The notes beneath the pieces are model-generated. The model was not told where the DNA came from. It worked only from the letters and a program-made list of their open reading frames with translations, and made no database searches. From Naegleria gruberi (lineage: Eukaryota): DNA of 64,000 nucleotides. Below are positions 27,501 through 44,650 of this stretch, piece after piece. The position numbers were made by a program, and so were the translations under genes. Position 1 is the first letter of the stretch; each line of letters opens with the position of its first letter. The stretch lies in NCBI GenBank assembly GCA_000004985.1, contig GG738847.1. One strand, 5' to 3'.

Positions 27501-30500
27501 TGTGAAAATATGCTTATGGCTGAAGGCTTCAAGGAAGCAAAGGTGTTGGCCAAAAAGTTTATTACTTTGTACAGTTTGAACAAAGACTTACTTTCAAAAC
27601 AAGATCACTATGATTGGGGTTTAAGAGCAATTAAATCTGTACTTGTAGTTGCTGGTTCTCTGAAAAGAGCTGAACCAAGCATGCCAGAAACTCACGTATT
27701 GATGAGAGCTTTAAGAGATTTCAATCTTCCAAAAATTGTTCAAGACGATTTGGAAGTTTTCACTGGTTTAATCAATGACTTATTCCCTGGAATTGATCCT
27801 CCAAGAAAAGTTGATCTTGACTTTGAAGGAATAGCTGCAGAAGAAATAACTGCTCTCAAACTTCAACCAGAAGACAGTTTAATTTTGAAGGTTGTCCAAT
27901 TAGCAGAGTTATTGGAGGTCAGACACAGTGTCTTTATTATTGGTCCTGCAGGAAGTGGTAAATCAGTATGTTGGAAATCATTAGCTGCAGCAAAGAAGAG
28001 AAGAAATGAAAAGGTTCTTGTCAGATTTTTGGATCCTAAGGCAATTACCTCTCATGAACTTTATGGTTACAAGAGTGAACAAGCCGACGAATGGAAAGAT
28101 GGTTTATTGAGTAGTATTATGAAAAATTTATCTGAAAGAGAAGATACTGATCCTAAATGGATTATTTTGGACGGTGACTTGGATACTGAGTGGATTGAAT
28201 CAATGAACTCTGTCATGGACGACAATAGAATTTTGACATTGGCCAATAATGATCGTATCCCACTCCTTTCTCACATGCGGTTAGTGTTTGAAATTTCTCA
28301 TCTTAAGTATGCCACACCAGCCACCGTATCTAGAGCAGGTATTTTATATATTGGAGAAAAGGATATAGGATGGCAACCATATGTTGCATCTTGGATAGAT
28401 CAAAGGCCACAGGCTGAAAGGGCTCATTTACTCATCTTGGTTGATAAGTATATTCCTGAAACTTTAAGATTTGTAAAAGCAAACTTTAAGCACCTTATTC
28501 CATTAACCGACTTCCATCTCATTCATAGTTTATTCCAAATATTGGAAAGTCTCTTTGCTAAAAATCCAACCCAAGGCGAGAAGGAAGTAATGGAGAATTT
28601 CTTTGCATTTGCTACAATATTCTCCTTCATGGGTGCCATATCTGACACTGAAAAGAAAACCAACAAAATGCTTTTTGATAAGTGGTGGAGATCTACATAC
28701 AAGTCGATCAAGTTCCCAGATGATTTACTTGTGTTTGATTGCTACTATAATCCAAAGACCAAATTAATGGAACCTTGGAGGGAGATTATGCCAAATTATG
28801 AATATGATGCTGATATTCCTGTTCCTCAAATTATGGTCCCAACAGAAGAGACTACATGTATTAGATATTTGATGGATCATATTGTTGATATTGGTAAACC
28901 TTTGATGCTTGTTGCTAATGCAGGTGTTGGTAAAACACAATTAATTTCAGACAAGTTAAATAACTTGGATATCCTTAACTTTGCCTCAACCTCGATCAGT
29001 TTCAATTATTATACTGACTCTGAGTCTTTACAAAAGTTTTTGGAAGGTTCTCTTGAATCAAAGGGTGGTAAGAGGTTGGGACCACCAGGCAATAAGAAGA
29101 TGATTTTCTTCATTGATGATTTCAACATGCCAAGAGTTGACGCTTATGGAACTCAAACACCTATTGCATTGTTGCGCCAACACCTTGATTATGGTTGTTG
29201 GTATGAAAGAGCAAAATGGAATTTAAAAGAAATTATCAAAGTTCAATATATTGCATCTATGAATCCTACAGCTGGTAGTTTTACCGTTAATCCAAGGCTG
29301 CAAAGACACTTTGTTACCTTGGGTATCAACTTCCCTTCAAGGGCTAGTTTACAAAAGATTTATGGCTCTATTTTAGCAGGTCATTTAAAACGATTCCCGT
29401 TAGAATTAGCATCTGTTTGTAATAATGTAGTGAATGGTACTCTAGACTTACATGAAAAGGTTGTAAACTTATTCCCAAAGACTGCAAACAAATTCCACTA
29501 CGAGTTTAATCTCAGACAATTATCTAGTGTATTCGAAGGACTGTTAAGAAGTGAGGTGAACGAATTCAAGGAACCAAAACTTGGAAACCTCAAATTCGCA
29601 AGATTACTCACTCACGAGATTAACAGAGTTTATGGTGATAGGCTGTCCTCAAAGGATGACTTGATAATATTCGAAAAGGAACTCAAGAACATTGTGAATG
29701 ACAAGTTCCCAGAGTTTGGAGGTGAAGCAATTATTAGTAAGCCTCTAGTGTTTTCTCATTTTGTTTCTGGTGGAGATGGTGCTTATGACCAATTCACAAG
29801 TACGGAAAGTGTAAGAAAGGTATTGGAAGAGGCTCTAAAGAGACATAATCTTACAAAGACCAACATGGACCTTGTACTCTTTGAGGATGCTCTTGAACAT
29901 GTATGCAGAATTAATCGTATCATCAAGGGTGCTAATGGTAACGCTCTCTTAGTTGGTGTTGGTGGTAGTGGTAAGCAAAGTCTTTCAAGACTTGCTGCCT
30001 TTGTGGGCGATTTTGAAGTTTGTAAAATTGTCATTACAAAAGATTATGGTGTCAATAACCTCAAGGAAGATCTTAAAAATATGTACAAGAAGGCTGGTAA
30101 GAACCAAAAATTGGTATTCTTACTCAATGATAACCAAATTGTTGATGAGAAATTCCTTGTTTATATTAACGATTTATTATCAACAGGTAATATTCCTGAT
30201 TTATTTGCTGCAGACGAGAAGGAAGAAATAGCAAACTCTCTTAGAACTGAAGTCAAATCTGCTGGTATTTTTGATATTTCAAAAGAAAGCTGTTGGAAGT
30301 TCTTCATTAATAAGGTTAGAAGAAACTTACATGTTGTTTTATGTTTCTCACCTGTTGGAGAAAGTTTACGTATTAGAAGTAGAAACTTCCCAGCTATCAT
30401 CAACTGTACTCAAATCGATTTCTTCTTCCCTTGGCCAAAAGAAGCCTTATTGAGCGTTGCTGATAAGTTCTTGAAACCTGAAATGCCAATTACTGGAGAA

Positions 30501-33500
30501 CACCATCCATCAATTGTAAAAGCAATGGCATTCACTCATGAAAAAGTCAATGAATTTAGCTCTAGATTCCTCAACGAACTTGGTAGATATACCTATACTA
30601 CTCCAAAGAGCTATCTTGAATTCTTGAAACTGTACAAATCTCTTCTTTACAAAAAGAGAGAGCTTATCAAGGGTTTAATTGATAGATTGAGCCAAGGTAT
30701 TCAAAAATTGAGGGATACCACCATGAACGTAACCAAATTACAAAAACAATTGGAAACGCAAGAAAAGGAGGTCAAGGAAAGAGAAATAGCAGCCGATATT
30801 ATCTTGGAGAAAGTTAAAAAGGAAAGAACAGTTGTGGAAGCAGAAAACAAAAAAGCTCTCACAGAAGAAAAATTCGCCCAAGAAATCAACCAACAAGTTG
30901 CTCAACAAACAGCAGAGTGTGAGGGAGAAGTTGAAAAAGCCAAACCAATCCTTGAAAAAGCAGAATTGGCTCTTCAAACTCTTAACAAGACTGAATTGAC
31001 AGAACTTAGGTCCTTCAGAACTCCAAACGTCAATGTACTTCTTGTATTCCAAGCTGTGCTTATTTTACTAAGTACAAAGTCTGGTGTAACAAAAGATTTG
31101 AGTTGGTCTGCAGCTCAGAAGGCTATGGCTCGTGGTTCTGATAAGTTCTTGGCTGTATTGGAAGCATATGATTCCAAGAATATCTATCCTCACATCCTTA
31201 CCGCTATCCAACCGTTCATGGATAATCCTAAATTCACAGGTGAGGAAATCAGAAAACATTCATCAGCTTCTGGAGGTTTATGTGAATGGGTCAGAAACAC
31301 TATTGAATATAATAAGACATTCGTAGCAGTGAAGCCAATGTTTGACAGCTTGGAAAAATCCAAACTTGAAAAGGCAGCAGCAGAAGAAAAATTGGCTAAA
31401 GTAAGAAAAACAGTAGCTAAATTGAATAAGCAGTTAAAGAAGATTGAAGGTGATTATCAAGCAGCAGAAGATGAAAAGAATGCCGCTCTTGACATTGCTA
31501 AAAAGACTCAAGAAAAATTGGACTTGGCTCAACGTTTTGTTCGTGCTTTGTCATCTGAAAATGCTCGTTGGTTGGAGGAAATTCAAAAACTACAAACTCT
31601 TAACAATGTATTAATAGGAGATGTACTTCTTGCGTCTGCCTTTATTTCATATGCTGGTAGTTTTGATATGAGATTTAGAACAGAGCTCACAGAAGCATGG
31701 AAACAAGAAATTATTGGAGAGTTAAAGATTCCAACTTCTGAAAATCTTAATTTGTTAGAAGTTATGACTGATGATGCTGAAATAGCTAAGTGGGGTAATC
31801 AAAAACTTCCATCAGACAAAACAAGTATTGAAAACGGCTGTATTTTATTGAATTGTGAAAGATGGCCTCTGGTTGTAGATCCTCAGCTCCAAGCCATTAC
31901 ATGGATTAAGAACCATTACAAAGATTTAATAATACTGAGATTAGAACAACCAGATATCATTGAAAAAATGGAACGAGCCATTCAAAAAGGCCAAACAGTT
32001 TTGATTGAGAACATCAAAGAGACCATTGATGCTGTCTTGTCACCAGTTATTGGCAGAAATATTATTCAAAGCGGTTCTTCGAAACTTATCAAACTGGGAA
32101 ATAACGAAATAGACTATCACGAAAATTTTAAACTTATTCTCCATACAAAACTTAATAACCCTCACTACAATCCAGAAATTCAAGCAGAAACAACCCTCAT
32201 CAACTTCTCTGTCACAGAAGAAGGCTTAGAGGAACAATTACTTGCCCTTGTTGTCCAAAAAGAAAGATCTGACCTCGAAGAGAAGAAATCAGAACTCAAC
32301 ACCAAGAAGAATGAATTCAAGATTAAACTGAAAGAATTGGAAGATAACTTGCTAGAAAATCTTAAGTACAAAGGTGATTTGCTTGGAAATGTTGAACTAA
32401 TTACAGGTTTAGAAAACACAAAGAAAACAAGTGAAGAAATCAAGATTCAAGTTTTAGAATCTATTGAAACAGAAAAGGATATCAATGCTGCAAGAGAAAA
32501 TTACAGAAAAGTTGCTAAGAGAGGAGCTATTCTTTATTTCCTTTTGGACCAACTTCAACTTGTAGAACATATGTACAAATATTCTTTAGCAGCTTTCAAT
32601 GTTGTTTTCAACAGAGCAATTACTAAAACAGAAAAAGTTGAAAATGAGGACCTATTTGTGAGAATTGGCAAACTCATTGACTCTATTACTTATGCTTGCT
32701 ATGAATACACTGAACGTGGTTTGTTTGAAAGACACAAACTCATTTTCATGACCAACCTTTGCTTCACTATCCATAGAGACATATTTAAACCAGAGCATTT
32801 GAATTTCCTCATTAATTGTCCAGCAGATCCAAACACTCCAAAGGAAAATCCATTTGCTGACTGGCTTTCTGAATCTTGTTTCAAGGCAATTTACAAATTA
32901 AGTCAATTAGAAGGTTTTGAAAAGTTATATGACGATATCTACAACTCAGGTAAGCGTTGGAAGCAATGGTCAATGCTTGAAGCCCCTGAAAAAGAAGGTT
33001 TACCACAAGATTGGAAGAAGAAGACAAACTTTGAGAAGTTGTTAATTATTAGAGCTTTAAGACCAGACAGAATTACACAGGCATTGAAGGAATTTGTTGG
33101 TGAGATTATGGGTGATAAGTTTGTTCAGTCCATTCCATTCTCTCTTGATAAGATATTTGCCGAGTCGAGACCTAACACTCCTCTCTTCTTCATTCTCTTC
33201 CCTGGTGCTGATCCAATCAAGAATATTGAAGCTTTGGGTAAAAGACTTGGTTTCTCTGAAGAAAATGACAAGTTTGTAAACATTTCTATGGGTAAAGGTC
33301 AAGAAGAACATGCAGAAAAGACATTACGTAAATCCTATGAAATTGGTGGATGGGTGGTGTTGCAAAACATTCACTTGATGCAGAAATGGTTGCCAACTCT
33401 TGAACGTACTCTTGAAAAGCTTTCTGAAGGCTCTCACAAAGACTTTAGAGTGTTCCTAACAGCTGAACCAACTCTTAATCCAGTTATTCCACAAAGTATT

Positions 33501-34943
33501 CTTCAAAACTCTATTAAGATCACAAACGAACCACCTCAAGATCTCTCAGCAAATCTCCACAGAGCCCTTTCGAACTTTTCTCAAGAATTCTTTGAGTCCT
33601 CAATCAAGCAAAGCGAATTCAAGACTATATTATTTGCTCTCTGTTTCTTCCATGCAGTTGTATTGGGTAGAAGAAAGTTCGGCTCTCAAGGATGGAGTAG
33701 AAACTATAGTTTTAACAATGGAGATTTGACAATCAGTGCAGACGTCTTGTATAACTACTTGGAAACCAATGATGCCATTCCATGGGAAGATATCAGATAT
33801 ATCTTTGGTGAAATTATGTATGGTGGTCATATTACTGATCACTGGGATAGAAGAACATGTACAACCTATCTCAAATGTTTACTTAAAGAACAATTATTCG
33901 ATGAAACAGAGTTAGCCCCTGGATTTAATGCTCCACCTTCAATGAACACTCTTGATGAATACCATGAATTTATCAATGAAAAACTTCCAGCAGAATCCCC
34001 ATTGCTGTTTGGCCTGCATCCAAATGCTGAAATTGACTTTTTGACAAACCAATCTGAAAGTTTATTCAAAGCCATAATCAAGATTAGAGGTGAAAGTAGT
34101 AATACATTTGTTAGTGATCATGTTGAAGATACACTTGCTCTCCAAATCGATGAATTATACAATACCCTCCCTGAAAACTTTGATTTGGATGAAATCTCTG
34201 GAAAGGCTGATAAGAAGATACCATTCGTTGCTGTCTGTTTGCAAGAATGTGAAAGAATGAACATCTTACTCAGTGAGATTAAGAATTCATTGACAGAATT
34301 GAAGATGGGTCTGAATGGTGAATTGACAATGTCAGAGCAAATGGATAAGTTGAAAAAGAGCTTGTCTTATGACCAAGTTCCAGCTCGTTGGGAGAAGGTT
34401 GCATATCCATCTGTTAAACCATTATCCCTTTGGTTTGAAGATCTTATTAAGAGAGTGAGACAATTAGAAGAATGGAGTTCAGAGCTGACTCTCCCAAAGG
34501 TACTTTGGTTATCAGGTCTTTTCAATCCGATGGCTTTCTTGACAGCCATTATGCAAACATCTGCCCGTAAGAATGGTTTCCCTCTTGATAGAATGTGTAT
34601 TCAAACAGAAGTCTTGAAAAAGACCAGATCTGAAATTCAACCTGTACCTCCAAGAGATGGTTGTTATGTTGATGGTTTTATTTTAGAAGGTGCAGGATGG
34701 GATATCAAGAGCAATGTTCTCAAAGATAGTGACCTTAAAGTTCTTCATTCACCAATGCCAGTCATTCACATCAAAGCTGTTCCAATTGATAAGAGAGACA
34801 CAAAGAATATTTATGAATGCCCTGTCTATGTTACTCCTCAAAGAGGTCCAACCTATATCTTTACTGCCCAATTAAAGACCAAACACGATGTATCCAAATG
34901 GGTATTAGCAGGAGCTTGTTTACTCCTACAAACATACAAATAA
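21504..34943 (+). CDS. Axonemal-type dynein heavy chain (~4,480 aa); at least 2 exons (21504..21531, 21600..34943), and the 5' end may extend further upstream
   Basis: AAA1 P-loop is GPAGTGKTET followed by ...CSDQMN...FKGLASSGAWGCFDEFNRI. The GLA(Q/S)(S/T)GAW and NRI forms are the axonemal signature, whereas cytoplasmic dynein carries GLCQVGAW and NRL. AAA2 is GPAGSGKS, AAA3 is ANAGVGKTQ and AAA4 is GVGGSGKQS. Coiled-coil stalk and C-terminal domain follow. A GTAAGT donor at 21532 and acceptor ccttacag at 21599 keep the frame. An upstream ATG at 21413 may mark an additional exon. Confidence 0.9.
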   Translation: MNSELVRKQGKCSIRIWTYMKMIRVKIQKFLTVESEMMLFFIKSKEKEEIIVSAEPVIGGHKKGIVFLKHSPIKITTDNYVESLFYEDVFADPLLNLQRIVEGVYLPLLQSPKNQKGWPNVVAQDLIRQFHRFTGMLDLFIGHTRGSVVLPMPPVDETVETASQDRSLVHAFETSVIDWSKETRKVIELDSDKILDELEKEEKYQGPLFEIDFWQAKKTKLTDLAHQLSNDRVKMVISTLEKTQSSYVTGFKKMLDDLNFALDESETISKYFEPLRKYFQDLNDSTISVSDLGEVFKPILHLISLMWRKCEYFNTGHLYVLIREICNDIVTRIYNYIEPSELWTNPMKVVAEKLQISFNGCEEFKVLFFQYRDIVNRTNPQKTWKFESSKVFTRLNLFIERLHDLRTIALYIDDFLSLDKFDIGGVNGAELTGMMSQLFEEFVDQQQKIQNVSYDVLDLKEEQFERDFYKFCDAINDFDKRICFMINKALQLNTGFKFTFKLLESFESQARREKIRQEIEGKISNMLSVYSEEITKVSTIFNKNKENPPLLDNFPKVSGAIAWCYSLRERVTWPLEKFKEQPFLTTSSELQDIIQRHEKLMAQMKKYEDEIFNSWKEQLNVNSLSHLNDNIISRMPDKRLVVNFNPELSFCIQEVEHLKPYANAVPEEAIALFEKGDIYRAKVATMDLMVRQYNTVIQTLIDVEKPLLADRLTTVDNILVESTEKLTWQSDIDNFILQSRENVRDIYNRTNFLKGNVKTIEKMVESWMTISNLIITDNSGIEEMKEKKASKIFDMVGFWRQSTDSNPTFKVYSQWKSKVSANIKKLSDVIIQSERIGHIMESSRLKICPQSSSEEWNNYWRNYVLFVNSIIEKGVFNAVREGLTFLINSFSGKNDMIALNSKTLSNIFITVKLELYSNDAVFTPNLIESTNSVHNSVKIWVSRVIGLASMVKRLDEVTTFEKVIKDDENINGLRQKVFSLMGNTINDMNDLREKFCEFSHLWEEDPREYLARFIKSGGDDVRFNSDSEVSDGENEDDEEEQENVVASLEEFEMQILKYEKIVLEIADLPDKASFGWLIVDSSPIKTALSNLASKWRFTFLDHLLSDVRSTLHEFNSFVKELKEGLCQPIPKDDYPKLVEMMRYIVRFKERPEHKQKDGLFDNLRETVQLLKKCSIVVPQEIILDLDDAKNKWSDLSKVYFEVKDKLSVVQDEEIKKISKEEIVFANVSEKLREDFVKDAPFYYSIGVDAAYERIDEVHERILVVEENMRELRDRQKLFGLMQNQGKLVRESRAELRLLKRVWDLVALVQSQIDEWKSIPFLKINDEELTEETKKFITELKSVDKRVKRWEVFIGLQNYVDNFMITLPLIQKLRNPGMRSRHWKQLMEKSKVDFTVTEKFSLSDLLSLNLHKYQDDVNEIVDKSEKEMKMEKQLKDLDALWSDLKFDFTVHTNGVEIVKVSEEVRESLEDNQLQLQSSSSSRFVEFFIEEIEEWLRKLGKVDTVINGLLDVQRKWLYLENIFIGTDDIRQQLPNDAKNFDAVDRELKLILTEAKKVMNIVSFCSSPGLEEKIVVLQDSLTSCEHQLSKYLETKKKAFPRFYFTSESDLLDILSKGGQSPHKILKHMPKLIQAVKTLKFRVDDNGNQTNEVIAIVSREDEEVSLTHPCILQGKVEDYLNDLLKAISRTLRDILSEAMLTYSSANREEWLSGYASQVILVTSQIYWTLEVNQAFEALEENNEAAMKNYYKKQVNQLNKLISLVQNDLEKGERQKIMNLVTLDVHARDIVDMLINENITSAQDFGWQCQLRQRWDAEHQDCIIDICDATFKYGYEYLGNGPRLVITPLTDRIYITLTQSLHLIMGGAPAGPAGTGKTETTKDLGSQLGKSVYVFNCSDQMNNESLADIFKGLASSGAWGCFDEFNRIAVEVLSVVSTQFKSILNAIRAKKDKFMFEGEEITLDRTNGVFITMNPGYLGRTELPESLKALFRPVTVVVPDLELICENMLMAEGFKEAKVLAKKFITLYSLNKDLLSKQDHYDWGLRAIKSVLVVAGSLKRAEPSMPETHVLMRALRDFNLPKIVQDDLEVFTGLINDLFPGIDPPRKVDLDFEGIAAEEITALKLQPEDSLILKVVQLAELLEVRHSVFIIGPAGSGKSVCWKSLAAAKKRRNEKVLVRFLDPKAITSHELYGYKSEQADEWKDGLLSSIMKNLSEREDTDPKWIILDGDLDTEWIESMNSVMDDNRILTLANNDRIPLLSHMRLVFEISHLKYATPATVSRAGILYIGEKDIGWQPYVASWIDQRPQAERAHLLILVDKYIPETLRFVKANFKHLIPLTDFHLIHSLFQILESLFAKNPTQGEKEVMENFFAFATIFSFMGAISDTEKKTNKMLFDKWWRSTYKSIKFPDDLLVFDCYYNPKTKLMEPWREIMPNYEYDADIPVPQIMVPTEETTCIRYLMDHIVDIGKPLMLVANAGVGKTQLISDKLNNLDILNFASTSISFNYYTDSESLQKFLEGSLESKGGKRLGPPGNKKMIFFIDDFNMPRVDAYGTQTPIALLRQHLDYGCWYERAKWNLKEIIKVQYIASMNPTAGSFTVNPRLQRHFVTLGINFPSRASLQKIYGSILAGHLKRFPLELASVCNNVVNGTLDLHEKVVNLFPKTANKFHYEFNLRQLSSVFEGLLRSEVNEFKEPKLGNLKFARLLTHEINRVYGDRLSSKDDLIIFEKELKNIVNDKFPEFGGEAIISKPLVFSHFVSGGDGAYDQFTSTESVRKVLEEALKRHNLTKTNMDLVLFEDALEHVCRINRIIKGANGNALLVGVGGSGKQSLSRLAAFVGDFEVCKIVITKDYGVNNLKEDLKNMYKKAGKNQKLVFLLNDNQIVDEKFLVYINDLLSTGNIPDLFAADEKEEIANSLRTEVKSAGIFDISKESCWKFFINKVRRNLHVVLCFSPVGESLRIRSRNFPAIINCTQIDFFFPWPKEALLSVADKFLKPEMPITGEHHPSIVKAMAFTHEKVNEFSSRFLNELGRYTYTTPKSYLEFLKLYKSLLYKKRELIKGLIDRLSQGIQKLRDTTMNVTKLQKQLETQEKEVKEREIAADIILEKVKKERTVVEAENKKALTEEKFAQEINQQVAQQTAECEGEVEKAKPILEKAELALQTLNKTELTELRSFRTPNVNVLLVFQAVLILLSTKSGVTKDLSWSAAQKAMARGSDKFLAVLEAYDSKNIYPHILTAIQPFMDNPKFTGEEIRKHSSASGGLCEWVRNTIEYNKTFVAVKPMFDSLEKSKLEKAAAEEKLAKVRKTVAKLNKQLKKIEGDYQAAEDEKNAALDIAKKTQEKLDLAQRFVRALSSENARWLEEIQKLQTLNNVLIGDVLLASAFISYAGSFDMRFRTELTEAWKQEIIGELKIPTSENLNLLEVMTDDAEIAKWGNQKLPSDKTSIENGCILLNCERWPLVVDPQLQAITWIKNHYKDLIILRLEQPDIIEKMERAIQKGQTVLIENIKETIDAVLSPVIGRNIIQSGSSKLIKLGNNEIDYHENFKLILHTKLNNPHYNPEIQAETTLINFSVTEEGLEEQLLALVVQKERSDLEEKKSELNTKKNEFKIKLKELEDNLLENLKYKGDLLGNVELITGLENTKKTSEEIKIQVLESIETEKDINAARENYRKVAKRGAILYFLLDQLQLVEHMYKYSLAAFNVVFNRAITKTEKVENEDLFVRIGKLIDSITYACYEYTERGLFERHKLIFMTNLCFTIHRDIFKPEHLNFLINCPADPNTPKENPFADWLSESCFKAIYKLSQLEGFEKLYDDIYNSGKRWKQWSMLEAPEKEGLPQDWKKKTNFEKLLIIRALRPDRITQALKEFVGEIMGDKFVQSIPFSLDKIFAESRPNTPLFFILFPGADPIKNIEALGKRLGFSEENDKFVNISMGKGQEEHAEKTLRKSYEIGGWVVLQNIHLMQKWLPTLERTLEKLSEGSHKDFRVFLTAEPTLNPVIPQSILQNSIKITNEPPQDLSANLHRALSNFSQEFFESSIKQSEFKTILFALCFFHAVVLGRRKFGSQGWSRNYSFNNGDLTISADVLYNYLETNDAIPWEDIRYIFGEIMYGGHITDHWDRRTCTTYLKCLLKEQLFDETELAPGFNAPPSMNTLDEYHEFINEKLPAESPLLFGLHPNAEIDFLTNQSESLFKAIIKIRGESSNTFVSDHVEDTLALQIDELYNTLPENFDLDEISGKADKKIPFVAVCLQECERMNILLSEIKNSLTELKMGLNGELTMSEQMDKLKKSLSYDQVPARWEKVAYPSVKPLSLWFEDLIKRVRQLEEWSSELTLPKVLWLSGLFNPMAFLTAIMQTSARKNGFPLDRMCIQTEVLKKTRSEIQPVPPRDGCYVDGFILEGAGWDIKSNVLKDSDLKVLHSPMPVIHIKAVPIDKRDTKNIYECPVYVTPQRGPTYIFTAQLKTKHDVSKWVLAGACLLLQTYK

Positions 34944-37259: not shown

Positions 37260-39011
37260 TTGCCCATCACATCATCATCATTTGTTTTATTTATTGTTAT
37301 CATGTCTGATTCATCATTATCTTTCTTTCAGAAGGAGACGATTCAAGTGATCGCTCAATCTGTGGGCATTACTAAATTAAAAGATGAAATTGCTCAAGCT
37401 TTGGCTCTTGATGTTGAATATAGAGTGAGAGAAATAATACAAGATGCTTCAAAGTGTATGAAACATGCTAAGAGAGGAGTTTTAACTACAGATGATATTA
37501 GTAATGCCTTGGCAATGAAGAATATCGAGGTAGGTAACTTTGTATATTATTTGATGATCATGAATGTTGTTTTAGCCACTTTACGGATTCAAAGGACAAT
37601 CATCACAACCAAATAGATTTAGGAGAGTTAAACAAACGAAAGATTTATACTTTTTGGAGGATGTAGAACTTGATTTGAAGGATTGTTTGGAAAAACCTCT
37701 TCCAAAGATACCAATAGGACCATCAATATTTACACACTGGTTGGCCATTCAAGGTATTCAACCAAAGATTCCTCAAAATCCTACTATTGAAGAAACAGAA
37801 TCGGAAAGAAAGAAGGAATCAAAAGATAAGGATCAATCCAAGAAAGTTTCATCATCACACGATCCTAATGTAGAATTTAAACCACTTGTCAAACATATAT
37901 TATCGGAAGAACTCCAAATGTACTTTGAAAAAGTTACAGAAGCTATCAAAGATACTACAAACCAAAAGAAAGAACTAAGAAAAGCTGTCATTGAAAGCTT
38001 GGCAACTGATTCTGGTATTAATCAACTCGTCCCTTATTTTACTCAATTTATTGCTAGTGAAGTCACAAATAATATGAGAAATTTGACTCTTCTTTATAGA
38101 TTGATGGAAATGACAAAAGCACTTCTTGTCAACCCAAATATTCATATTGAACTTTATGTATGTACTGCTTTGAATCATTTTAAATCTTATCATAGTATTA
38201 GCTTCATCAAATAATGCCTTCAATTCTGACTTGTATTGTTGGTAAAACTTTATGTGAAAATCCATATGAAAACCATTGGGGACTTCGAGACTTTTCAGCA
38301 AATACTATTGCCTATATTTGTCGCAAGTAAGTTTCTATTATATTTTTGAAACAGTATTCATCAAATATTTAAAGATTTGGCTCCTCATATCATACCCTCC
38401 AACCCAGAATTACTAAAACATTGCTTCATGCATTTTTAGATCCAAAAAGGTCAAGGGCAACTCATTATGGTGCTATTGTAGGAATTACAGCTCTAGGATC
38501 ACATGTAACACAACTCTTGCTCTTGGAACCTCCTAAGAATTCTAACCTTAAAATATTTTGCAATTTACTCCTTCCTGAACTTGTTTCCTCTGACATGAAC
38601 ACTAAACACCAGGCCTTTATGTGTTACAAAGCATTATTAACAGCCCCTGGAAACTTTTTCACTCAACTTGCTAGGTTTTTCAAACTTGAACAACAGGAAC
38701 GTGTGAGAGATCTTGGAGAAAATTCAAATGTTATTGAAGAGGATGATAATTATTACGAATCTCCTCAACTTGATTCATCAAAGAAGAGAGATTCCAACAA
38801 ATCAGAGGAGGTTCTAAAGATTGAACAATTGACCAGAGAAATGAGAGAAAGAATGAATTCATCCAATATTCCAGAAGATGTTTCTGAAAGATATTCAGAA
38901 TTCTTTGATTTGTTTGGTGAATCAGTATTTTCCTTCATTGACTATGATGTTTATAACAAGAAACCTGACAACTCTCCTGATGCATTCCTGCTTCGTGACT
39001 TGATTTTGTAA
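37260..39011 (+). CDS. TAF6: TFIID subunit TAF6; 4 exons (37260..37529, 37576..38157, 38202..~38326, ~38375..39011)
   Basis: Exon 1 histone-fold reads IQVIAQSVGITKLKDEIAQALALDVEYRVREIIQDASKCMKHAKRGVLTTDDISNALAMKNIE. From memory, human TAF6 reads [63 protein letters not shown]. Exon 2 starts PLYGF, as in human. Exon 3 reads LHQIMPSILTCIVGKTLCENPYENHWGLRDFSANTIAYICRK, against human LHQLMPSVMTCIV...[21 protein letters not shown]. Exon 4 reads FGSSYHTLQPRITKTLLHAFLD...THYGAIVGITALG, against human ...QSRITKTFTKSW...TRYGSIAGLAELG. Introns are 46, 44 and ~48 nt. Confidence 0.75.
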
Positions 39012-39275: not shown

Positions 39276-40373
39276 ATGCAAACAAGAAACATACTCGTGT
39301 CCGGACTGGGTGGTGGTCTCGATATTCAAAATGCTCTTTTATTATTTAAACTTTTAAAGAATACACAAAAACACTCGAGTGAGCTTTCTGATGATTTTCA
39401 ATTTAATATTGCTAATGTATACCTTGGTTCAGTGAGACCTTGTCGCCAAGAAAATATCAATGATCCGATTGATACAACAATTTCACCATTTGTAACTGTG
39501 ATCGGAGCAAATAGTACAATTTCTATCAAGGGAAGATATTTTGAACCAACAATTGCAAAAGAATTAAATGAAAATGTAATCATGATGACAGGTTCAGTGG
39601 ACAAGACACCTACTGTTGACACTTTGGCAATTGACAATTTGAAAGAAGGATTGAAAGCACTTACAGAAAAGTATCAATTGACTGATTTGATATTTGTTGA
39701 TGGTGGTGGAGACTCTTTGATACTAGACAGTAATGACACAATTGATAAGGTAGGTCTATAATTGGAGTAATATTGATTCAATTTACAAAAAAAGATTCAT
39801 AACAATGTATTTATTGGTGGAGATGCTGTATGCTTAGCTGCTCTCCATAAATTGTCTTTGGAATTACCAAATATCAATATAATTCAAGGAATTATTGCTG
39901 TTGGATTGGATGTTAACAGGAAAGCATTCAAAAAGAATGTTAAAGAAATTGGAGAACGTGGAGGATATTACGGAAGAGTAAATTTTTCAACAGGAAAATC
40001 AGTTGACACAAGAAATCATACCAATGTTTTTGTAAACTCTCTCACACGTTACATATTTGAAAATCAAATTGTAAGAGAGGCAACTTTACAGGAATTCTTT
40101 GAAGTTGCAGAAAAATATCTTGTCCTCACACCAGAGCACTGTAAAATCAAAGACGATCCAAAAGCAACAGAGAAGAGATTTATGAGTCATACTGCAGTTG
40201 TGACCTATCATGCTTTGAAGAATAATTTTGGACTTCAAAGGACATTTGTTCCTTGGGAACCAAAATTGAAGGAAGGAAAGGGAGTAGTTGTAGATGTTGA
40301 CCATCAGTGGCTCTACCTACTCAATCCAGCCACTGCTGAGCAAATTAAAATTGACAAATTTAACACTGAATAA
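39276..40373 (+). CDS. Protein of unknown family with two glycine-rich loops (GLGGGLD ... VDGGGDS); 2 exons (39276..39749, 39795..40373) with a 45-nt intron
   Basis: Donor is GAT AAG|GTAGGT and acceptor is ...caaaaaaag, joining in frame to IHNNVFIGGDAVCLAALHKLSLELPN... (~351 aa in all). N-terminal VSGLGGGLD and mid-protein LIFVDGGGDSLILD suggest phosphate- or nucleotide-binding loops. I have no confident family match. Confidence 0.5.
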
Positions 40374-40419
40374 AAACTTTCCCGCCAAATAAATTGTTCA
40401 ATTTTTAAATTTAAAAAAA

Positions 40420-43400
40420 ATGAAAAGAAAACAAAAAGAAGCTCAAATCATTTCATCATCGGATGAAGCAGATGATGAAGTTGTTGTTGTGATTAATTCG
40501 AGTGATGAATCGGAAGAGGATGATAACGATTATGGTTATTCACTAGTAAAGGGTAGTGGCCAATATAAGTCTCTTTATGATTTTACTATTGTGTCAAATC
40601 CTGATTATTTGGAGAATGGAGATAAACCAAGGTTCTTTTCTATTGAAGGATTGACTTCGGTTGGAAAGGAATTATTTGCTTGTGGAATGTGCTTTAGTCA
40701 TGACAAGAAAACTGACAGCAAAGTTGGCTCACGTTCAGTATTTGGACCTATTAAAGAATGGGCAATAGAATATAGATTCTTGCCTGTTGTTAGTATTTTG
40801 GTTGAAACTTCGTCAAAGGATACCGAGTGGATTGAACTTATTTCTCCAACAAAAGAATATTTTCACATATTCAATTCTACATATCAGACGATTGCTGTGT
40901 GCCATGCTTTGATTAATCTTGTTCAGAGACATCCAAAAGAGTCGTACGAATCTATTATAGAAATGGTAGGTTTATTGGAATTATTCAGTCTTTAACATTT
41001 AAATAGCTCAAAAAAGCACAATTGGCTTTTATTTACCACCCAACCATAAGAAATACTAAACCCATTGTAAGCGAGGATTACATTCTTGAAAAATCAAAAT
41101 TTATTTCAGAACAATTCAATAGTTTACAAGAGACGAGGGTTTTAAACTCTTCATTCTTTTCACAACTAGTAAGTGTCTTCTTAAATTAATTCTAACGCAT
41201 TTATAGGAGGACATAATGATGAGAGGGGGAGTTCTTGCTGAACTTATTACTTCATCTGAGGAGGAAGAGGATGACACTCAATCAACAAGCTCAGAAGAAG
41301 AGTTTGTTCCAAAGGGTGCTCACTCTGATCCAAGTGATGAATCCATGTCAGAAGTTGTCTCAGAATCATCAGATTCTTCTGACTCTTTTTATAAACCAAA
41401 ATCTGTGAAAACTAAAAAGCAAACAAAATCTAAGAAAACCCTCTCTACTGTATCAACTAAAAAGGAAAATTTAATTAATGACGATTATTCGAGTGGCTCT
41501 GAGGAAGAAACTAAGACTAAGAAAACTAAAGCAAAATCCTTGAAGAAAACAACAGTCAAAAAAGAAAAGAAGGAGAAGGAAATTGTAAATAAGAATTTAG
41601 AACAAATTAAAGCCCATGACCTTGAAGATATCAAATGGGGAAAGCCAATCAGTAAGAAAATTGACGAATCAGGTCGAAAATATTTCAAGTCTTGTAAAAT
41701 TTCAAAAGAGGAATATAATATTGGCGATTTTATCTACTTGAAAACTCCATATCTCAATCATGAAATGCCATACTATATTTGTATGGTTGATTCATTCTTT
41801 GAAAATTGGAAAGGTCAGCGTCAGATGCGAGTGAGATGGCTTAGAAGATATCAAGATATTAAGATACTTACTACAGGAGAATATCATAATGTACTTTGTT
41901 ATGATCACCAGGAGTTGTACTTGACAGACGAATATGATGATGTGAGTATACTTACTTTAATTAATTACAAACATAATATTTTAGAACTTTATCAAGAACA
42001 TTAAGGGAAGATGTGCTGTATTTTTTGTAAGAAAGACTGAAGATTTTGAAAAAATTGAAGGATCACGAGATAAGAAGGATATTTTCTATTGTAAAAGCAA
42101 GATTGTAATTGTTGGAGAACAGATTTCTCTGTTAGAGTTAAGTCCACAAGAAATTGAACTCACATTCAAATGTATGGAAAATAACTTGAATGCCATTAAG
42201 GACCAATTCATTCCAAAAGAAAAAATTACAGCTCTTGACATATTTTCTGGTTGCGGTGGGTTGAGCCTAGGGTTGGAAAGAGCAGGTATCCATGTTAAAT
42301 ACAGCATCGAATTTTGGAAACCAGCAGCTGATACTCATCACTATTATTTCAAAGATTGCCACACCTTTTGTAAGAATGCCGAAGAGTTCCTCAAGCACAT
42401 TAAGGTGGCTAATGAATTGAAAAAAAGGTTTGGTCTTTTAGATAAAAAGTGTCAAATCAAAGGTTCACCTGGTAAGAGAAGAGTGATCCACATCAAAAAT
42501 GCCAAAAGAAAGAAGGATGGATCTCTTTGGTTAATGGTTGAGAAACAGGGTCAAGATTTGTGGATGGATGTTGAAAAAATGGATAGTTATAGAGCAGAAA
42601 TTGTACATTTTCTATCAACAAAATATGCAAACATACCAGCACCTGACGAAATTGATTTAATTGCTGGAGGACCTCCTTGTCAAGGATTCAGTTTACTGAA
42701 TAGATTCAAAGAAACAGATTCATCAAAGTTCTTATCACACGATAAGAATCGTTTAGTTTTAGTGTTTTTGGATTATGTGAAATACTTTAAGCCTAAATAT
42801 GTACTGATTGAAAATGTGACAGGTATTCTTAACACGACAGTATTTGATGTACCATCAGCAATCATTGAAAAGTTGGATGCAAGAGGTTATGAAGCCAAAT
42901 TCTCAACAGTTAACGCACAACACTTTGGAGTAAGTTTTTAATATATTTCAATAACGTAATTTATCGTTAAAGTTACCACAAACAAGAACAAGAGTAATTT
43001 TCTTTGGTGCAAGAAAGGATGAAAACCTTAAAGTTCCAGATTTCCCAAAGAATACTCATGCTTCCCATAAAGTTAGTGCTGTTCTTGACAATGCCAGTCA
43101 GGTAAAACTTGTAGCAAATGTAAGAAAGATTGTTGCAGGACCTCTTCCTCCTGTTTCACTCAGAGATGTTATTAGTGATCTGATTCCTTTTGAGGATTCA
43201 TCAGAATCAACTGCTGAATATCTACCTCCAAAGACAGTCTATCAAAAGCTCTATAGAAAGGATAGCGATACTTGCATTGATCACATTTCACAATCATATG
43301 GAGAGGTAACCTCAGCACTTATCAAATGTTTACCTAGATATCCTGGTTGTAATTTTAGAGATTTGGCAGAAAGTGCAAGACCACTTTTAAAAGAGGGTTA

Positions 43401-44193
43401 TTTGACCTATAGAGACTTTTCCAAGAATATTCTAGCTAGATTGCAGTGGAGTAAGAGTTGCCCAACACTTGTCACTCACTTGAACCCATATAGTATGAAG
43501 GTAATTCATCCCAATCAACATCGAGTTATTTCTGTAAGGGAGGCTGCTAGATGTCAGGGCTTCCCTGACGATTTTATATTTACTGGAAGCATTCACGATA
43601 AGTACAAACAAATTGGTAATGCTGTTCCTGTGAATATGGCCAAGGCGTTGGGAGGTGAAATTATTAAGGCCTATACAAATCATCTTTTAGACAAGAATGG
43701 AAATAGAAGAGAGGTTGAAGCAACAACAACGAAGAAATTGAGAGAAAATATGTACAAATGGTTTTCAGATCTGAAGTCATGGGCCAGTAAGGACTATGAA
43801 CCAAAACCTTTACTCAAGGAACTCATAGATATTCTAAAACCAATTGACAAATCTCTATGTGATGGATATCTAGTTCCACCGACAGACGAGGATATTCAAT
43901 TCTTGAAAAAAGAAATACCGAGACTGGTTCAGAAACATGCCAGTGATACAGAAGAGGTTATTACCCAAGAAGTCAAGGTCATTTATAATGATTCGTCAGA
44001 TGACGATGAAGCTGATGCAGAATGCTCAAATTCAGAAGAATCTGACAATCAAGACGAAGAAACTGAAATTCAAAAAGCTGCTTCTCAAAGAAAATCAAAG
44101 AAAGCTCCAGCCAAAAAGAAACCTGTTCTATCTGAAAGCTCTTCTGAAGAAGAAGAAGCTATCATTAGTATTTCTGATTCTGATTCTGATTAA
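40420..44193 (+). CDS. DNMT1: DNMT1-family cytosine-5 DNA methyltransferase (RFD + BAH + C5-MTase), ~1,202 aa; 5 exons (40420..40965, 41007..41168, 41207..41941, 41985..42929, 42973..44193)
   Basis: The RFD-like N-terminus has SLYDFTIVSNPDYLENGDKPRFFSIEGL...FGPIKEWAIEYRF...TEWIELISPTKEY, against DNMT1 RFD ...[27 protein letters not shown]...LGPINEWWITGFDG...AEYILMDPSPEY. The BAH domain reads YNIGDFIYLK...YICMVDSFFENWKGQRQMRVRWLRRY...GRCAVFFV. MTase motif I is DIFSGCGGLSLGLERAG, IV is GGPPCQGFS and VI is ENV. Motif VIII spans the exon 4/5 junction (HFG|LPQTRTRVIFFGA). IX/X is QIGNAVPV. The tail is acidic and S-rich. Donors are GTAGGT, GTAAGT, GTGAGT and GTAAGT, and introns are 41, 38, 43 and 43 nt. 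All junctions are in frame. Confidence 0.85.
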
Positions 44194-44392: not shown

Positions 44393-44650
44393 ATGGAACA
44401 AGACAAATTACAACCACTCTCACCAGGTACACTCACTCAATTTACCTTGAACATGATTGAAGATTGTTTTGATGTTTGCAACAAGAAACAAACTACAAGT
44501 AATAATTCATCATCATCATCACTCCACAAGGAATGTATCGGAAATTGTTATCAACTCTATCAACAAGGCTTTATCTATTTATTAAATCATTATCAAAATA
44601 ATAACAATCAATCTAATTCTATCAATAATAATAATAATAATATTAATTAA
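44393..44650 (+). CDS. Small Tim (Tim8/9/10/13 family) intermembrane-space chaperone
   Basis: Twin CX3C motifs are present (EDCFDVC ... ECIGNC). The ORF is 85 aa and has a poly-N tail. Confidence 0.55.
   Translation: MEQDKLQPLSPGTLTQFTLNMIEDCFDVCNKKQTTSNNSSSSSLHKECIGNCYQLYQQGFIYLLNHYQNNNNQSNSINNNNNNIN

What the first reader, a model, noticed from the sequence alone, without database searches (positions are those of the whole stretch)
40420..44193. Complete five-exon gene model for a DNMT1-family maintenance-type cytosine methyltransferase with an unusual domain complement
Three ORF-track fragments (40420-40995, 41216-42004, 42174-42941) and a fourth (43363-44193) join into one ~1,202-aa protein. 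The introns are tiny (38-43 nt) and a 54-codon exon (41007..41168) is missed by the ORF track. The N-terminus aligns to the DNMT1 replication-foci domain (FGPIKEW..., TEWIELISPTKEY). A single BAH domain follows, and then the full C5-MTase motif set I, IV, VI, VIII, IX and X. Two things depart from textbook DNMT1: there is no CXXC zinc finger and only one BAH domain. A further ~60-70 residues (GKRRVIHIKNAKRKKDGSLWLMVEKQGQDLWMDVEKMDSYRAEIVHF) sit between motif I and motif IV. In plant chromomethylases a chromodomain occupies exactly this position. The insert has only a loose aromatic pattern (W...W) and I cannot call it a chromodomain. An RFD + BAH + MTase enzyme in an AT-rich genome that also carries poly-N tracts implies 5mC maintenance in this lineage. 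This is the most system-like element in the window.
Basis: partly seen in the sequence, partly recalled or inferred. Interest (0 to 1): 0.62.

Follow-up and report, generated by a model that had tools for sequence, protein, structure and literature searches.

The report
Naegleria DNMT1-like methyltransferase with chromo-like insert
This is a real five-exon gene for a DNA cytosine methyltransferase of the DNMT1 superfamily in a Naegleria-type amoeba; the enzyme family is already catalogued there, but it carries a small, previously unremarked domain at the exact spot where plant chromomethylases carry their histone-reading chromodomain.

Summary
Exons 40420-40965, 41007-41168, 41207-41941, 41985-42929 and 42973-44193 join in frame through four GT..AG, phase-0 introns of 38-43 nt into a 1202-aa protein. 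It is colinear, with no gaps at any junction, with the annotated Naegleria lovaniensis protein XP_044555355.1.

Pfam finds DNMT1-RFD, one BAH and DNA_methylase, and no CXXC, second BAH or Chromo. All catalytic motifs are intact.

The motif I-IV spacing is 141 aa, against 66-79 in DNMT1 and bacterial enzymes and 167-205 in CMTs. The extra 64 aa align onto the ZMET2/CMT chromodomain. AlphaFold predicts a three-strand sheet plus helix there. Sequence tests for Chromo fail or are weak, fold searches give only generic Tudor/chromo hits, and all three aromatic-cage positions are lost.

A distance tree places the heterolobosean proteins outside canonical DNMT1/MET1. Their position relative to CMT is unresolved.

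The window is most likely N. gruberi. Its "DNMT1" genes and its low, context-independent 5mC in heterochromatin are published (PMC12344493). So "DNMT1 family" is supported, while "maintenance-type" is doubtful. The gene is known; the cage-less chromo-like insert combined with an RFD is a modestly new variant.

The parts
40420..40965 (+). Exon 1 (aa 1-182): acidic N-terminus and the first part of the RFD
   Evidence: ATG at 40420. GT donor at 40966. Colinear with the N. lovaniensis protein from its first residues, MKRKQ.
40966..41006 (+). Intron 1 (41 nt, GT..AG, phase 0)
   Evidence: The junction is gap-free in the ortholog alignment.
41007..41168 (+). Exon 2 (aa 183-236, 54 codons): C-terminal part of the RFD
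41169..41206 (+). Intron 2 (38 nt, GT..AG, phase 0)
41207..41941 (+). Exon 3 (aa 237-481): acidic/Ser/Lys-rich low-complexity linker and the first part of the BAH
   Evidence: The linker is the least conserved region (16-40% identity).
41942..41984 (+). Intron 3 (43 nt, GT..AG, phase 0)
   Evidence: This intron is absent in the metagenomic ortholog L001, whose ORF reads straight through the same junction.
41985..42929 (+). Exon 4 (aa 482-796): end of the BAH, MTase motifs I-VIII and the insert
42930..42972 (+). Intron 4 (43 nt, GT..AG, phase 0)
42973..44193 (+). Exon 5 (aa 797-1202 plus stop): motif VIII QTRTR, TRD, motifs IX-X, conserved C-terminal extension and acidic tail
40648..41138 (+). 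Replication-foci (RFD/RFTS) domain, aa ~77-226, spanning intron 1
   Evidence: Pfam PF12047 at aa 95-184, E 3.7e-12. phmmer aligns aa 77-226 to the mouse DNMT1 RFTS and hits the isolated human RFTS chain 6pzv_C at E 3.4e-4. The RFD is also present in the N. lovaniensis and Willaertia orthologs.
41708..42098 (+). Single BAH domain, aa 404-519, spanning intron 3
   Evidence: Pfam PF01426, E 4.1e-19. The best non-heterolobosean matches among the fetched proteins are an unlabelled 925-aa protein (P0250, 26 bits) and a grass CMT (P0235, 24 bits), against about 15 bits for the best DNMT1-type protein, P0031. Only about 49 aa separate it from motif I, which leaves no room for a second BAH.
42219..43674 (+). 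C5 cytosine methyltransferase domain, aa ~560-1030, spanning intron 4. Catalytic Cys713 lies at 42678-42680.
42447..42629 (+). Insert between motifs I and IV: a basic arm (aa 636-649) followed by a predicted chromo-like module. Strands are at aa 650-656, 662-668 and 671-676, and the helix is at aa 681-694.
   Evidence: Spacing of 141 aa against 66-79. Aligned onto the ZMET2/CMT chromodomain. AF2 places the strands and helix at the same residues with and without CMTs in the MSA. Conserved 47-63% among Naegleria-type orthologs. No aromatic cage.
43690..43974 (+). Conserved C-terminal extension after motif X (aa 1036-1130), specific to this lineage
   Evidence: 74 bits to N. lovaniensis and 29 bits to Willaertia. 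No Pfam family.

Best explanation
The locus is a nuclear, five-exon gene of a Naegleria-type heterolobosean, most likely N. gruberi. It encodes a catalytically intact DNA cytosine-5 methyltransferase of the DNMT1 superfamily.

Architecture: RFD, a disordered linker, one BAH, an MTase domain with a roughly 64-aa insert between motifs I and IV, and a lineage-specific C-terminal extension.

Shown: the gene model, the three Pfam domains, the complete catalytic motif set, and conservation of the architecture in N. lovaniensis and Willaertia magna. Also shown: the insert occupies the CMT chromodomain slot, is predicted to fold as a three-strand sheet plus helix, and lacks the methyl-lysine aromatic cage.

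Inferred: the enzyme is one of the writers of the sparse, context-independent 5mC found on transposons and viral insertions in H3K9me3/H3K27me3 chromatin of N. gruberi. It would be brought to chromatin by its RFD and BAH, as in DNMT1, DIM2 and CMT. The cage-less chromo-like module would act as a structural, allosteric or nucleosome/DNA-contacting element (its N-terminal arm has 10 K/R in 27 aa) rather than as an H3K9me reader.

Functionally it is better compared with DIM2 or CMT, which methylate heterochromatin in CG and non-CG contexts, than with a strict hemimethylated-CpG copier.
For: - Gene model and junctions.
- Domains. The same RFD+BAH+MTase architecture is found in N. lovaniensis XP_044555355.1 and W. 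magna KAL9657727.1.
- Catalytic motifs I, IV, VI, VIII, IX and X are intact.
- PDB sequence search: DNMT1 E 2.6e-67. ZMET2 E 1.1e-56 in a single stretch from the BAH through the insert to the MTase. DIM2 E 5.9e-27.
- Insert position and length.
- AF2 in context: overall pLDDT 83.5 and insert pLDDT 94-97, with a strand-strand-strand-helix order. AF2 of the insert alone, with a 3-sequence MSA and no CMTs, places strands and helix at the same residues with pLDDT 72-80 in the core.
- The insert is conserved about as well as the BAH, TRD and RFD, and better than the linkers.
- Published N. gruberi data: 0.28% 5mC in all four dinucleotide contexts, CpG symmetry r 0.25, enrichment on young TEs and silent genes, co-location with H3K9me3/H3K27me3, and DNMT1 orthologues as the only candidate DNA methyltransferases (PMC12344493).
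- DIM2 is a precedent for an RFTS+BAH enzyme of this superfamily that methylates CG and non-CG DNA under H3K9me3 control (PMC11315935).
Against: - The species is inferred, not proven. No window ORF was found by exact look-up. The link to N. gruberi rests on 55.6% identity to N. lovaniensis, 33.8% GC and the absence of any closer hit.
- No expression or splicing data were available.
- Nothing here assigns the published methylation to this paralogue rather than to the second DNMT1-like gene the paper mentions.
- Sequence tests for Chromo are negative or weak.
- The roles proposed for the RFD, BAH and insert are transferred from DNMT1, DIM2 and CMT, and were not tested.
Confidence: 0.75

Rival explanations
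1. It is a canonical DNMT1-type maintenance enzyme. After replication it copies CpG methylation from hemimethylated DNA, recruited through its RFD, and the insert is an irrelevant variable loop.
For: - RFD and BAH are present.
- The best sequence and structure matches in PDB are DNMT1 and MET1.
- The published survey files the N. gruberi enzyme under DNMT1, not CMT.
Against: - Only one BAH, and no CXXC.
- DNMT1/MET1 form a clade that excludes the heterolobosean proteins in 99% of NJ bootstraps.
- The TRD (motif VIII to IX) is 186-194 aa, as in bacterial relatives (183-187). It is shorter than plant MET1 (199-209) and animal-type DNMT1 (232-256).
- The phmmer alignment to mouse DNMT1 skips about 70 TRD residues of DNMT1.
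- The N. gruberi methylome has no CpG preference and weak symmetry.
- The insert is conserved like a folded domain and is predicted to be structured.
Confidence: 0.12
2. It is a true chromomethylase orthologue. The insert is a working chromodomain that, together with the BAH, reads H3K9 methylation and directs non-CG methylation as in ZMET2/CMT3.
For: - ZMET2 aligns in one continuous stretch from the BAH through the insert to motif IV.
- Plant CMTs cover 88-95% of the BAH+MTase query, against about 50% for DNMT1s.
- The best non-heterolobosean BAH matches among the fetched proteins are P0250 (unlabelled) and the grass CMT P0235.
- The predicted topology matches a chromodomain.
- N. gruberi 5mC is non-CG and sits in H3K9me3 regions.
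Against: - The ZMET2 cage residues F441, W466 and Y469 align to a gap, K668 and a gap. Residue numbers are from memory of Du et al. 2012 and are consistent with the chain numbering. No aromatic substitute appears in any Naegleria or Willaertia ortholog.
- Pfam Chromo is not detected in any heterolobosean ortholog.
- A profile search of PDB finds no chromodomain.
- hhalign gives only P 0.003 over 25 columns.
- Grouping with CMTs has only 25-31% bootstrap support.
- CMTs have no RFD.
Confidence: 0.08
3. The insert is an independent, lineage-specific insertion that happens to sit in the same permissive surface loop as the CMT chromodomain. It shares no ancestry with it.
For: - The insert alone shows no significant sequence similarity to CMTs (bits about 0). 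Even Willaertia scores only 14 bits.
- The phylogeny does not join heteroloboseans to CMTs.
- Other enzymes carry different inserts in this slot, with spacings of 135-227 aa.
- Fold hits are as good for Tudor as for chromo.
Against: - The slot is the same, the strand-strand-strand-helix order is the same, and the tryptophan aligned with the TWEP tryptophan of CMTs is invariant.
- The helix before the insert resembles the CMT-specific helix: AEEFLKHIK..L.KRF against AEDFLELLK..L.KRY.
- hhalign aligns the W-E/D...helix half in register.
Confidence: 0.3

Closest known systems
DNMT1 / MET1 (animal and plant maintenance CpG methyltransferases)
   Same: - N-terminal RFD/RFTS, a BAH, and a C-terminal C5-MTase with all motifs.
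- The RFD is closest to plant MET1-type RFDs.
   Different: - One BAH instead of two, and no CXXC.
- 64 extra residues between motifs I and IV, and a shorter TRD.
- Falls outside the DNMT1/MET1 clade.
- The methylation pattern reported for N. gruberi is not CpG-specific.
Plant chromomethylases (ZMET2, CMT3, CMT2)
   Same: - A single BAH directly before the MTase.
- An extra module inserted at the same point between motifs I and IV, preceded by a similar helix.
- A continuous alignment with ZMET2.
- A predicted sheet-plus-helix topology.
   Different: - Has an RFD, which CMTs lack.
- The insert is 25-60 aa shorter, is not recognised as Chromo, and has lost the aromatic cage.
- Clade membership is unresolved.
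Fungal DIM2 (Neurospora)
   Same: - A DNMT1-superfamily enzyme with an RFTS and a BAH that methylates CG and non-CG DNA in H3K9me3 heterochromatin (PMC11315935).
- This matches the pattern reported for N. gruberi.
   Different: - DIM2 has two BAH domains, no insert in the motif I-IV slot, and depends on HP1.
- Sequence similarity is much weaker (E 5.9e-27).
Haptophyte 'CMT-like' DNMT1-related enzymes (Emiliania, Gephyrocapsa, Isochrysis)
   Same: They are reported with an RFD (plus a BAH in E. huxleyi) and a DNMT domain, while clustering with CMT-type enzymes (PMC9998398). This is another RFD-bearing lineage outside canonical DNMT1.
   Different: I did not have their sequences. Whether they carry an insert between motifs I and IV is unknown to me.
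Heterolobosean orthologs (N. lovaniensis XP_044555355.1, W. magna KAL9657727.1, Acrasis kona AKO1_013239)
   Same: Same family, with the same insert length (136-143 aa spacing). The first two have the same RFD+BAH+MTase order.
   Different: - All are annotated only as hypothetical proteins or 'cytosine-specific methyltransferase'.
- In Acrasis no RFD was found upstream, and the annotated protein is N-terminally truncated.

Membership tests
C5 cytosine DNA methyltransferase (PF00145) | Motifs I (FxGxGG), IV (PCQ with catalytic Cys), VI (ENV), VIII (QxRxR), IX (RE) and X (GNAVP), in order | tested here: met
   Pfam E 2.4e-57. All six motifs located at aa 568, 709, 757, 799, 985 and 1011.
DNMT1 family (sensu stricto: DNMT1/MET1) | Replication-foci (RFD/RFTS) domain N-terminal to the catalytic domain | tested here: met
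   PF12047 E 3.7e-12. Aligned to the mouse DNMT1 RFTS and to human RFTS chain 6pzv_C.
DNMT1 family (sensu stricto: DNMT1/MET1) | Two tandem BAH domains before the MTase domain | tested here: not met
   One BAH only (aa 404-519), and 49 aa to motif I. The same holds in the N. lovaniensis and Willaertia orthologs.
DNMT1 family (sensu stricto: DNMT1/MET1) | CXXC zinc finger (holozoan DNMT1 only; not in plant MET1) | tested here: not met
   No PF02008 hit. A single CxxC in the whole protein.
DNMT1 family (sensu stricto: DNMT1/MET1) | Catalytic domain branches inside the DNMT1/MET1 clade | tested here: not met
   NJ, 386 columns, 500 bootstraps. DNMT1/MET1 are monophyletic without the heteroloboseans in 99%. 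Heteroloboseans plus DNMT1 group in 39-46%. This is a distance method only, so the deep placement should be treated as unresolved.
DNMT1 family (sensu stricto: DNMT1/MET1) | Preference for hemimethylated CpG | not testable with these tools
   Published N. gruberi EM-seq/WGBS shows no CpG preference and CpG symmetry r 0.25 (PMC12344493). This argues against it if the window is N. gruberi.
Chromomethylase (CMT) | Single BAH followed by an MTase with an extra domain inserted between motifs I and IV | tested here: met
   Spacing 141 aa against 66-79. MAFFT and phmmer place the insert on the CMT chromodomain columns.
Chromomethylase (CMT) | The inserted domain is a recognisable chromodomain (PF00385) | tested here: not met
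   - No Pfam hit at E<=10 on the insert or in any ortholog.
- No PDB hit by phmmer or profile search.
- hhalign P 0.003 over 25 columns only.
Chromomethylase (CMT) | Aromatic cage for H3K9me2 in the chromodomain (ZMET2 F441, W466, Y469) | tested here: not met
   In the phmmer alignment to ZMET2 these positions fall on a gap, K668 and a gap. There are no aromatics in the equivalent loop of any Naegleria or Willaertia ortholog.
Chromomethylase (CMT) | Catalytic domain branches inside the CMT clade | tested here: inconclusive
   Heteroloboseans plus all CMT-like sequences group in 25-31% of bootstraps. Plant CMTs alone are monophyletic in 100%.
Chromodomain / Royal-family fold | Three-stranded antiparallel sheet packed against a C-terminal helix | tested here: inconclusive
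   - The predicted topology matches in both AF2 runs.
- Foldseek's best hits are Tudor domains at E ~0.02, with chromodomains at E ~1.
- The confident model used CMTs in its MSA.
DIM2 | RFTS + BAH1 + BAH2 + MTase; HP1- and H3K9me3-dependent CG and non-CG methylation | tested here: not met
   No second BAH. Weak similarity to DIM2 chains (E 5.9e-27). HP1 dependence is not testable. The functional resemblance rests on literature only.

The most novel reading that the evidence does not exclude
The domain inserted between motifs I and IV may not be a plant invention. An RFD + BAH + MTase enzyme carrying a chromo-type insert would then have existed before discobans and Archaeplastida diverged, or have been exchanged between them. 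On this reading, Naegleria keeps a 'proto-chromomethylase' that still has its RFD. Its insert would have lost methyl-lysine reading and now act as an allosteric or nucleosome-contacting element. That would explain how a 'DNMT1' produces context-independent methylation in heterochromatin.
Probability: 0.25. Interest if true: 0.65.

Novelty: new variant of a known kind. Interest (0 to 1): 0.42.

Why it matters
N. gruberi is one of the few discobans with 5mC. The published methylome raised an open question: how can an organism with only DNMT1-type enzymes methylate all sequence contexts and apparently act de novo (PMC12344493)?

The enzyme encoded here differs from a textbook DNMT1 in several ways. 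It lies outside the DNMT1/MET1 clade, has one BAH whose closest labelled matches here are CMT BAH domains, has a short TRD, and carries a conserved structured insert in the chromomethylase slot. Together these give a concrete, testable structural lead for that plasticity.

It also bears on when the RFD, BAH and chromo modules of the DNMT1/CMT/DIM2 superfamily were assembled.

The practical yield is modest. The gene is already catalogued, and the new element rests on prediction.

Tried and rejected
- Full-length protein search. It was swamped by the low-complexity linkers and gave 2 useless hits. It was repeated with aa 375-1045.
Exon 4 was used as a DNA reference instead.
- Exact look-ups of three window ORFs found nothing, so the source genome is not in the collection and the species could not be read off.
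- The metagenome scan with the insert region returned only two unrelated 38% matches and did not recover L001.
- Chromo tests on the insert:
  - Pfam and PDB phmmer gave nothing.
  - A 7-sequence profile against PDB gave one irrelevant hit at E 1.1.
  - phmmer of aa 604-700 against all fetched proteins gave about 0 bits to CMTs.
  - hhalign against a CMT chromodomain profile gave P 0.003-0.01 over 22-25 columns.
- The afdb50 library, which might have named the species, was not available.
- The Biopython bootstrap timed out and was replaced by my own NJ code.
- I considered gene clustering with neighbours and rejected it. The flanking genes are unrelated housekeeping genes.
- I considered a pseudogene and rejected it. 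The reading frame and all motifs are intact, and orthologs are conserved.
- A tRNA-like sequence upstream of the Acrasis gene was not confirmed by ARAGORN.
Full report
**1. The observation**

The ORF list shows the four fragments 40420-40995, 41216-42004, 42174-42941 and 43363-44193.

Joining 40420-40965, 41007-41168, 41207-41941, 41985-42929 and 42973-44193 gives a 3609-nt reading frame with one terminal stop, encoding 1202 aa. The four introns are 41, 38, 43 and 43 nt. All begin GT and end AG, and all lie between codons.

No transcript data were available, so I tested the junctions by comparison. The annotated Naegleria lovaniensis protein XP_044555355.1 (P0270, 1230 aa) starts with the same MKRKQ and is 55.6% identical overall. 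It aligns without a gap across each of the four junctions. In a metagenomic ortholog (P0003 on contig L001), the exon 3/exon 4 junction is read through with no intron at all. The gene model is therefore well supported.

**2. What the protein contains**

- Pfam finds DNMT1-RFD (aa 95-184, E 3.7e-12), one BAH (aa 404-519, E 4.1e-19) and DNA_methylase (E 2.4e-57). Nothing else scores at E<=1: no CXXC, no second BAH and no Chromo.
- Only one CxxC occurs in the whole protein.
- Only 49 residues separate the BAH from motif I.
- The catalytic motifs are complete: FSGCGG at 568, GGPPCQGFS at 709 (Cys713), ENV at 757, QTRTR at 799, REAARCQGFP at 985 and GNAVP at 1011.
- Against solved structures the best sequence matches are DNMT1 (mouse, E 2.6e-67), with separate stretches for RFTS, BAH and MTase. 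Next come the maize chromomethylase ZMET2 (E 1.1e-56) and Neurospora DIM2 (E 5.9e-27).

**3. Where it comes from**

- The flanking genes are ordinary nuclear genes of a flagellated eukaryote: a 4479-aa dynein heavy chain, TAF6, a small Tim, PEX11, a TALE homeobox, an RNA polymerase largest subunit and aconitase. There is no functional cluster.
- The closest relatives of the methyltransferase are heterolobosean. They are N. lovaniensis (65% identity over exon 4), a metagenomic Naegleria-like contig (60% over the BAH+MTase query), Willaertia magna KAL9657727.1 (49% over exon 4, 39% overall) and Acrasis kona AKO1_013239 (about 33%).
- Exact look-ups of window ORFs found nothing.
- From my own knowledge, N. 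fowleri and N. lovaniensis are near-identical sister species. The 55.6% identity to N. lovaniensis and the 33.8% GC therefore point to the N. gruberi group. This is an inference, not a demonstrated fact.

**4. The insert**

*Position and length.* Spacing from motif I to motif IV is as follows:

| Group | Spacing (aa) |
|---|---|
| Bacterial enzymes and DNMT1 | 66-79 |
| Plant MET1 | 95 |
| The query and four other heterolobosean proteins | 136-143 |
| Plant CMTs | 167-205 |

*Alignment to CMTs.* phmmer aligns ZMET2 to the query in one unbroken stretch, from the BAH through motif I and the insert to motif IV. The insert lies on the ZMET2 chromodomain. MAFFT alignments with many CMTs and DNMT1s do the same. 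The helix that precedes the insert (AEEFLKHIKVANELKKRF) resembles the CMT-specific helix (AEDFLELLKEWEKLCKRY) more than the DNMT1 sequence does. One tryptophan, aligned with the W of the CMT 'TWEP', is invariant in all seven heterolobosean inserts.

*Sequence tests.* The insert cannot be called a chromodomain from sequence.
- Pfam and PDB phmmer find nothing.
- No heterolobosean ortholog reaches Pfam Chromo.
- A seven-sequence profile finds no chromodomain in PDB.
- The segment alone scores about 0 bits against CMTs.
- hhalign against a CMT chromodomain profile aligns only the W...helix half (25 columns, P 0.003, probability 10%).

*Structure prediction.* Two AlphaFold runs agree on secondary structure.
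- The insert alone, with a three-sequence alignment and no CMTs, gave mean pLDDT 67 (72-80 in the core). Strands fall at aa 646-656, 662-668 and 671-676, and a helix at aa 684-694. There is also a probably spurious N-terminal strand.
- Exon 4 in context, with 66 sequences including CMTs, gave pLDDT 83.5 overall and 94-97 in the insert. Strands fall at aa 650-656, 662-668 and 671-676, and the helix at aa 681-694.

This is the chromodomain order of elements, but the confident model may owe it to the CMT rows in its alignment.

*Fold searches.*
- Foldseek of the same model ranks 53BP1 and ERCC6L2 Tudor domains first (E 0.02-0.06). CDYL2 and CHD4 chromodomains, SAWADEE and a chromoshadow domain follow at E about 1.

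My reading is that the insert is a small Royal-family-type module, chromo-like in topology and position. Homology to the CMT chromodomain is not shown.

*Aromatic cage.* The ZMET2 cage residues F441, W466 and Y469 align to a gap, K668 and a gap. I recall these residue numbers from Du et al. 2012, and they match the aromatic positions in the chain numbering. No ortholog has aromatics in that loop.

*Other features of the insert.* It begins with a strongly basic arm, with 10 K/R and 1 D/E in aa 636-662. Among Naegleria-type orthologs it is 47-63% identical, and 33% to Willaertia. That is similar to the BAH, RFD and TRD, and clearly above the linkers at 16-40%. It is therefore a constrained module, not a free loop.

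**5. Family placement**

I built a neighbour-joining tree from 386 well-occupied columns of the catalytic domain, with the insert columns removed and 500 bootstraps.

| Grouping | Bootstrap support |
|---|---|
| Heteroloboseans monophyletic | 92% |
| Canonical DNMT1/MET1 monophyletic without heteroloboseans | 99% |
| Plant CMTs monophyletic | 100% |
| Heteroloboseans with DNMT1 | 39-46% |
| Heteroloboseans with CMT-like proteins | 25-31% |

The last two rows leave the deeper position undecided. This is a distance method on a biased sample, so I take from it only that the protein is not inside the DNMT1/MET1 clade.

Domain by domain, the RFD is closest to plant MET1-type RFDs. For the BAH, the best non-heterolobosean matches are an unlabelled 925-aa protein (P0250, 26 bits) and a grass CMT (P0235, 24 bits), against about 15 bits for the best DNMT1-type protein, P0031.

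The TRD (motif VIII to IX) is 186-194 aa in heteroloboseans and 183-187 in the bacterial relatives. It is 199-209 in MET1, 206-223 in CMTs and 232-256 in animal-type DNMT1.

The RFD+BAH+MTase order is kept in N. lovaniensis and Willaertia. In Acrasis the ORF extends upstream of the annotated start and holds a BAH, but I found no RFD in the 1.3 kb before it.

**6. What is already known**

Sarre et al. (Mol Biol Evol 2025, PMC12344493) list DNMT1 (not CMT) and DNMT2 for N. gruberi. They speak of 'a well-conserved DNMT1 enzyme' and 'only two DNMT1 enzymes'. Their EM-seq, WGBS and Nanopore data show:
- 0.28% 5mC, with equal levels in all four dinucleotide contexts;
- CpG symmetry r 0.25;
- 447 hypermethylated regions;
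- enrichment on young transposons, silent genes and viral insertions;
- overlap with H3K9me3 and H3K27me3.

They state that it is unclear whether this plasticity of the N. gruberi DNMT1 is ancestral or lineage-specific. The main text never mentions a chromodomain in the Naegleria enzyme. No paper in the searchable library combines Naegleria, DNMT1, chromodomain and BAH.

Two further precedents are relevant. Hoguin et al. (PMC9998398) describe haptophyte enzymes with an RFD, and a BAH in one species, that cluster with CMT-type enzymes. The DIM2 structure paper (PMC11315935) shows an RFTS+BAH enzyme of this superfamily that methylates CG and non-CG DNA under H3K9me3 and HP1 control.

**7. How it most likely works**

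*Shown.* The protein is an intact C5-MTase with an RFD, one BAH and a conserved structured insert without a methyl-lysine cage.

*Inferred.* It writes 5mC on DNA in heterochromatin in any sequence context. It reaches chromatin through the RFD and the BAH. RFDs bind ubiquitinated and/or K9-methylated H3 in DNMT1 and DIM2. The BAH keeps two of the three ZMET2 cage positions, Y and W, with R at the third. The insert would serve as a structural, allosteric or nucleosome/DNA-contacting piece.

I put this at 0.75 as a whole. Near-certainty applies to 'DNMT1-superfamily DNA methyltransferase gene'. I give about 0.7 to 'the insert is a chromo/Tudor-like folded module', and about 0.5 to 'it shares ancestry with the CMT chromodomain'.

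The rivals are a strict CpG maintenance enzyme (0.12), a working chromomethylase (0.08), and an insert of independent origin (0.3). The last is not exclusive of the main explanation.

**8. Verdict**

The finding is real and carefully described. The family assignment is right in the broad sense. The 'maintenance-type' label is doubtful. The presence of 5mC in this lineage has already been shown by experiment.

The new element is the combination of an RFD with a cage-less, chromo-like insert in the chromomethylase slot, conserved across Naegleria and Willaertia. It is a variant of a known kind, supported by alignment and prediction only. Interest is moderate.

Noticed in passing
window 43690-43974 (aa 1036-1130 of the methyltransferase): A C-terminal extension after motif X is conserved in N. 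lovaniensis (74 bits) and Willaertia (29 bits). It matches no Pfam family. An acidic/Ser tail follows it.
   Followed up: partly
L002:5278-7794 (Acrasis kona JAOPGA020000819.1): The annotated protein AKO1_013239 starts at motif I, but the ORF continues 241 codons upstream and holds a BAH domain (E 4.8e-10). The public model is therefore N-terminally truncated. No RFD was found in the 1.3 kb upstream.
   Followed up: partly
L002 ~4870-4960: A tRNA-Lys-like sequence with what looks like an extra ~13 nt in the D-loop lies just upstream of the Acrasis gene. ARAGORN does not call it.
   Followed up: partly
L001 (metagenome contig MLSBCLC_10452389), around 817-2637: This Naegleria-like ortholog has no intron at the position of intron 3 in the window, so that intron was gained or lost within the group. 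All four window introns are phase 0 and 38-43 nt.
   Followed up: partly
window 21504-34943 (+): A single uninterrupted 4479-codon ORF encodes a complete dynein heavy chain: DHC_N1, DHC_N2, the AAA modules, the stalk and the C-terminal domain.
   Followed up: partly
window 44393-44650 (+): An 85-aa small Tim (Tim10/DDP) protein has a twin CX3C motif and ends in a poly-asparagine tail. Its Pfam score is just below the curated cut-off (22.2 against 22.3).
   Followed up: no
window 37654-38214 and 38421-39011 (+): Two adjacent ORFs both match the TAF6 C-terminal HEAT domain, at successive profile positions. They are probably one gene split by an intron or a frame change.
   Followed up: no
window 40374-40419: Only 46 nt separate the stop of the upstream DUF1152-like gene (39276-40373) from the methyltransferase start codon. 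The genome is very compact here.
   Followed up: no
window 41708-42098 (BAH): In the alignment to ZMET2, the BAH cage residues Y203 and W224 are kept but F226 aligns to arginine. By eye, from unaligned sequence, that position appears to vary among the orthologs (R in N. lovaniensis, Y in the metagenomic ortholog, L in Willaertia). Methyl-lysine reading by the BAH is therefore uncertain.
   Followed up: partly
P0164, P0214 (proteins): These are other MTases with a Pfam-recognised Chromo domain in the same motif I-IV slot but no BAH. P0164 appears to have two chromodomains. The slot seems to have been used repeatedly.
   Followed up: no
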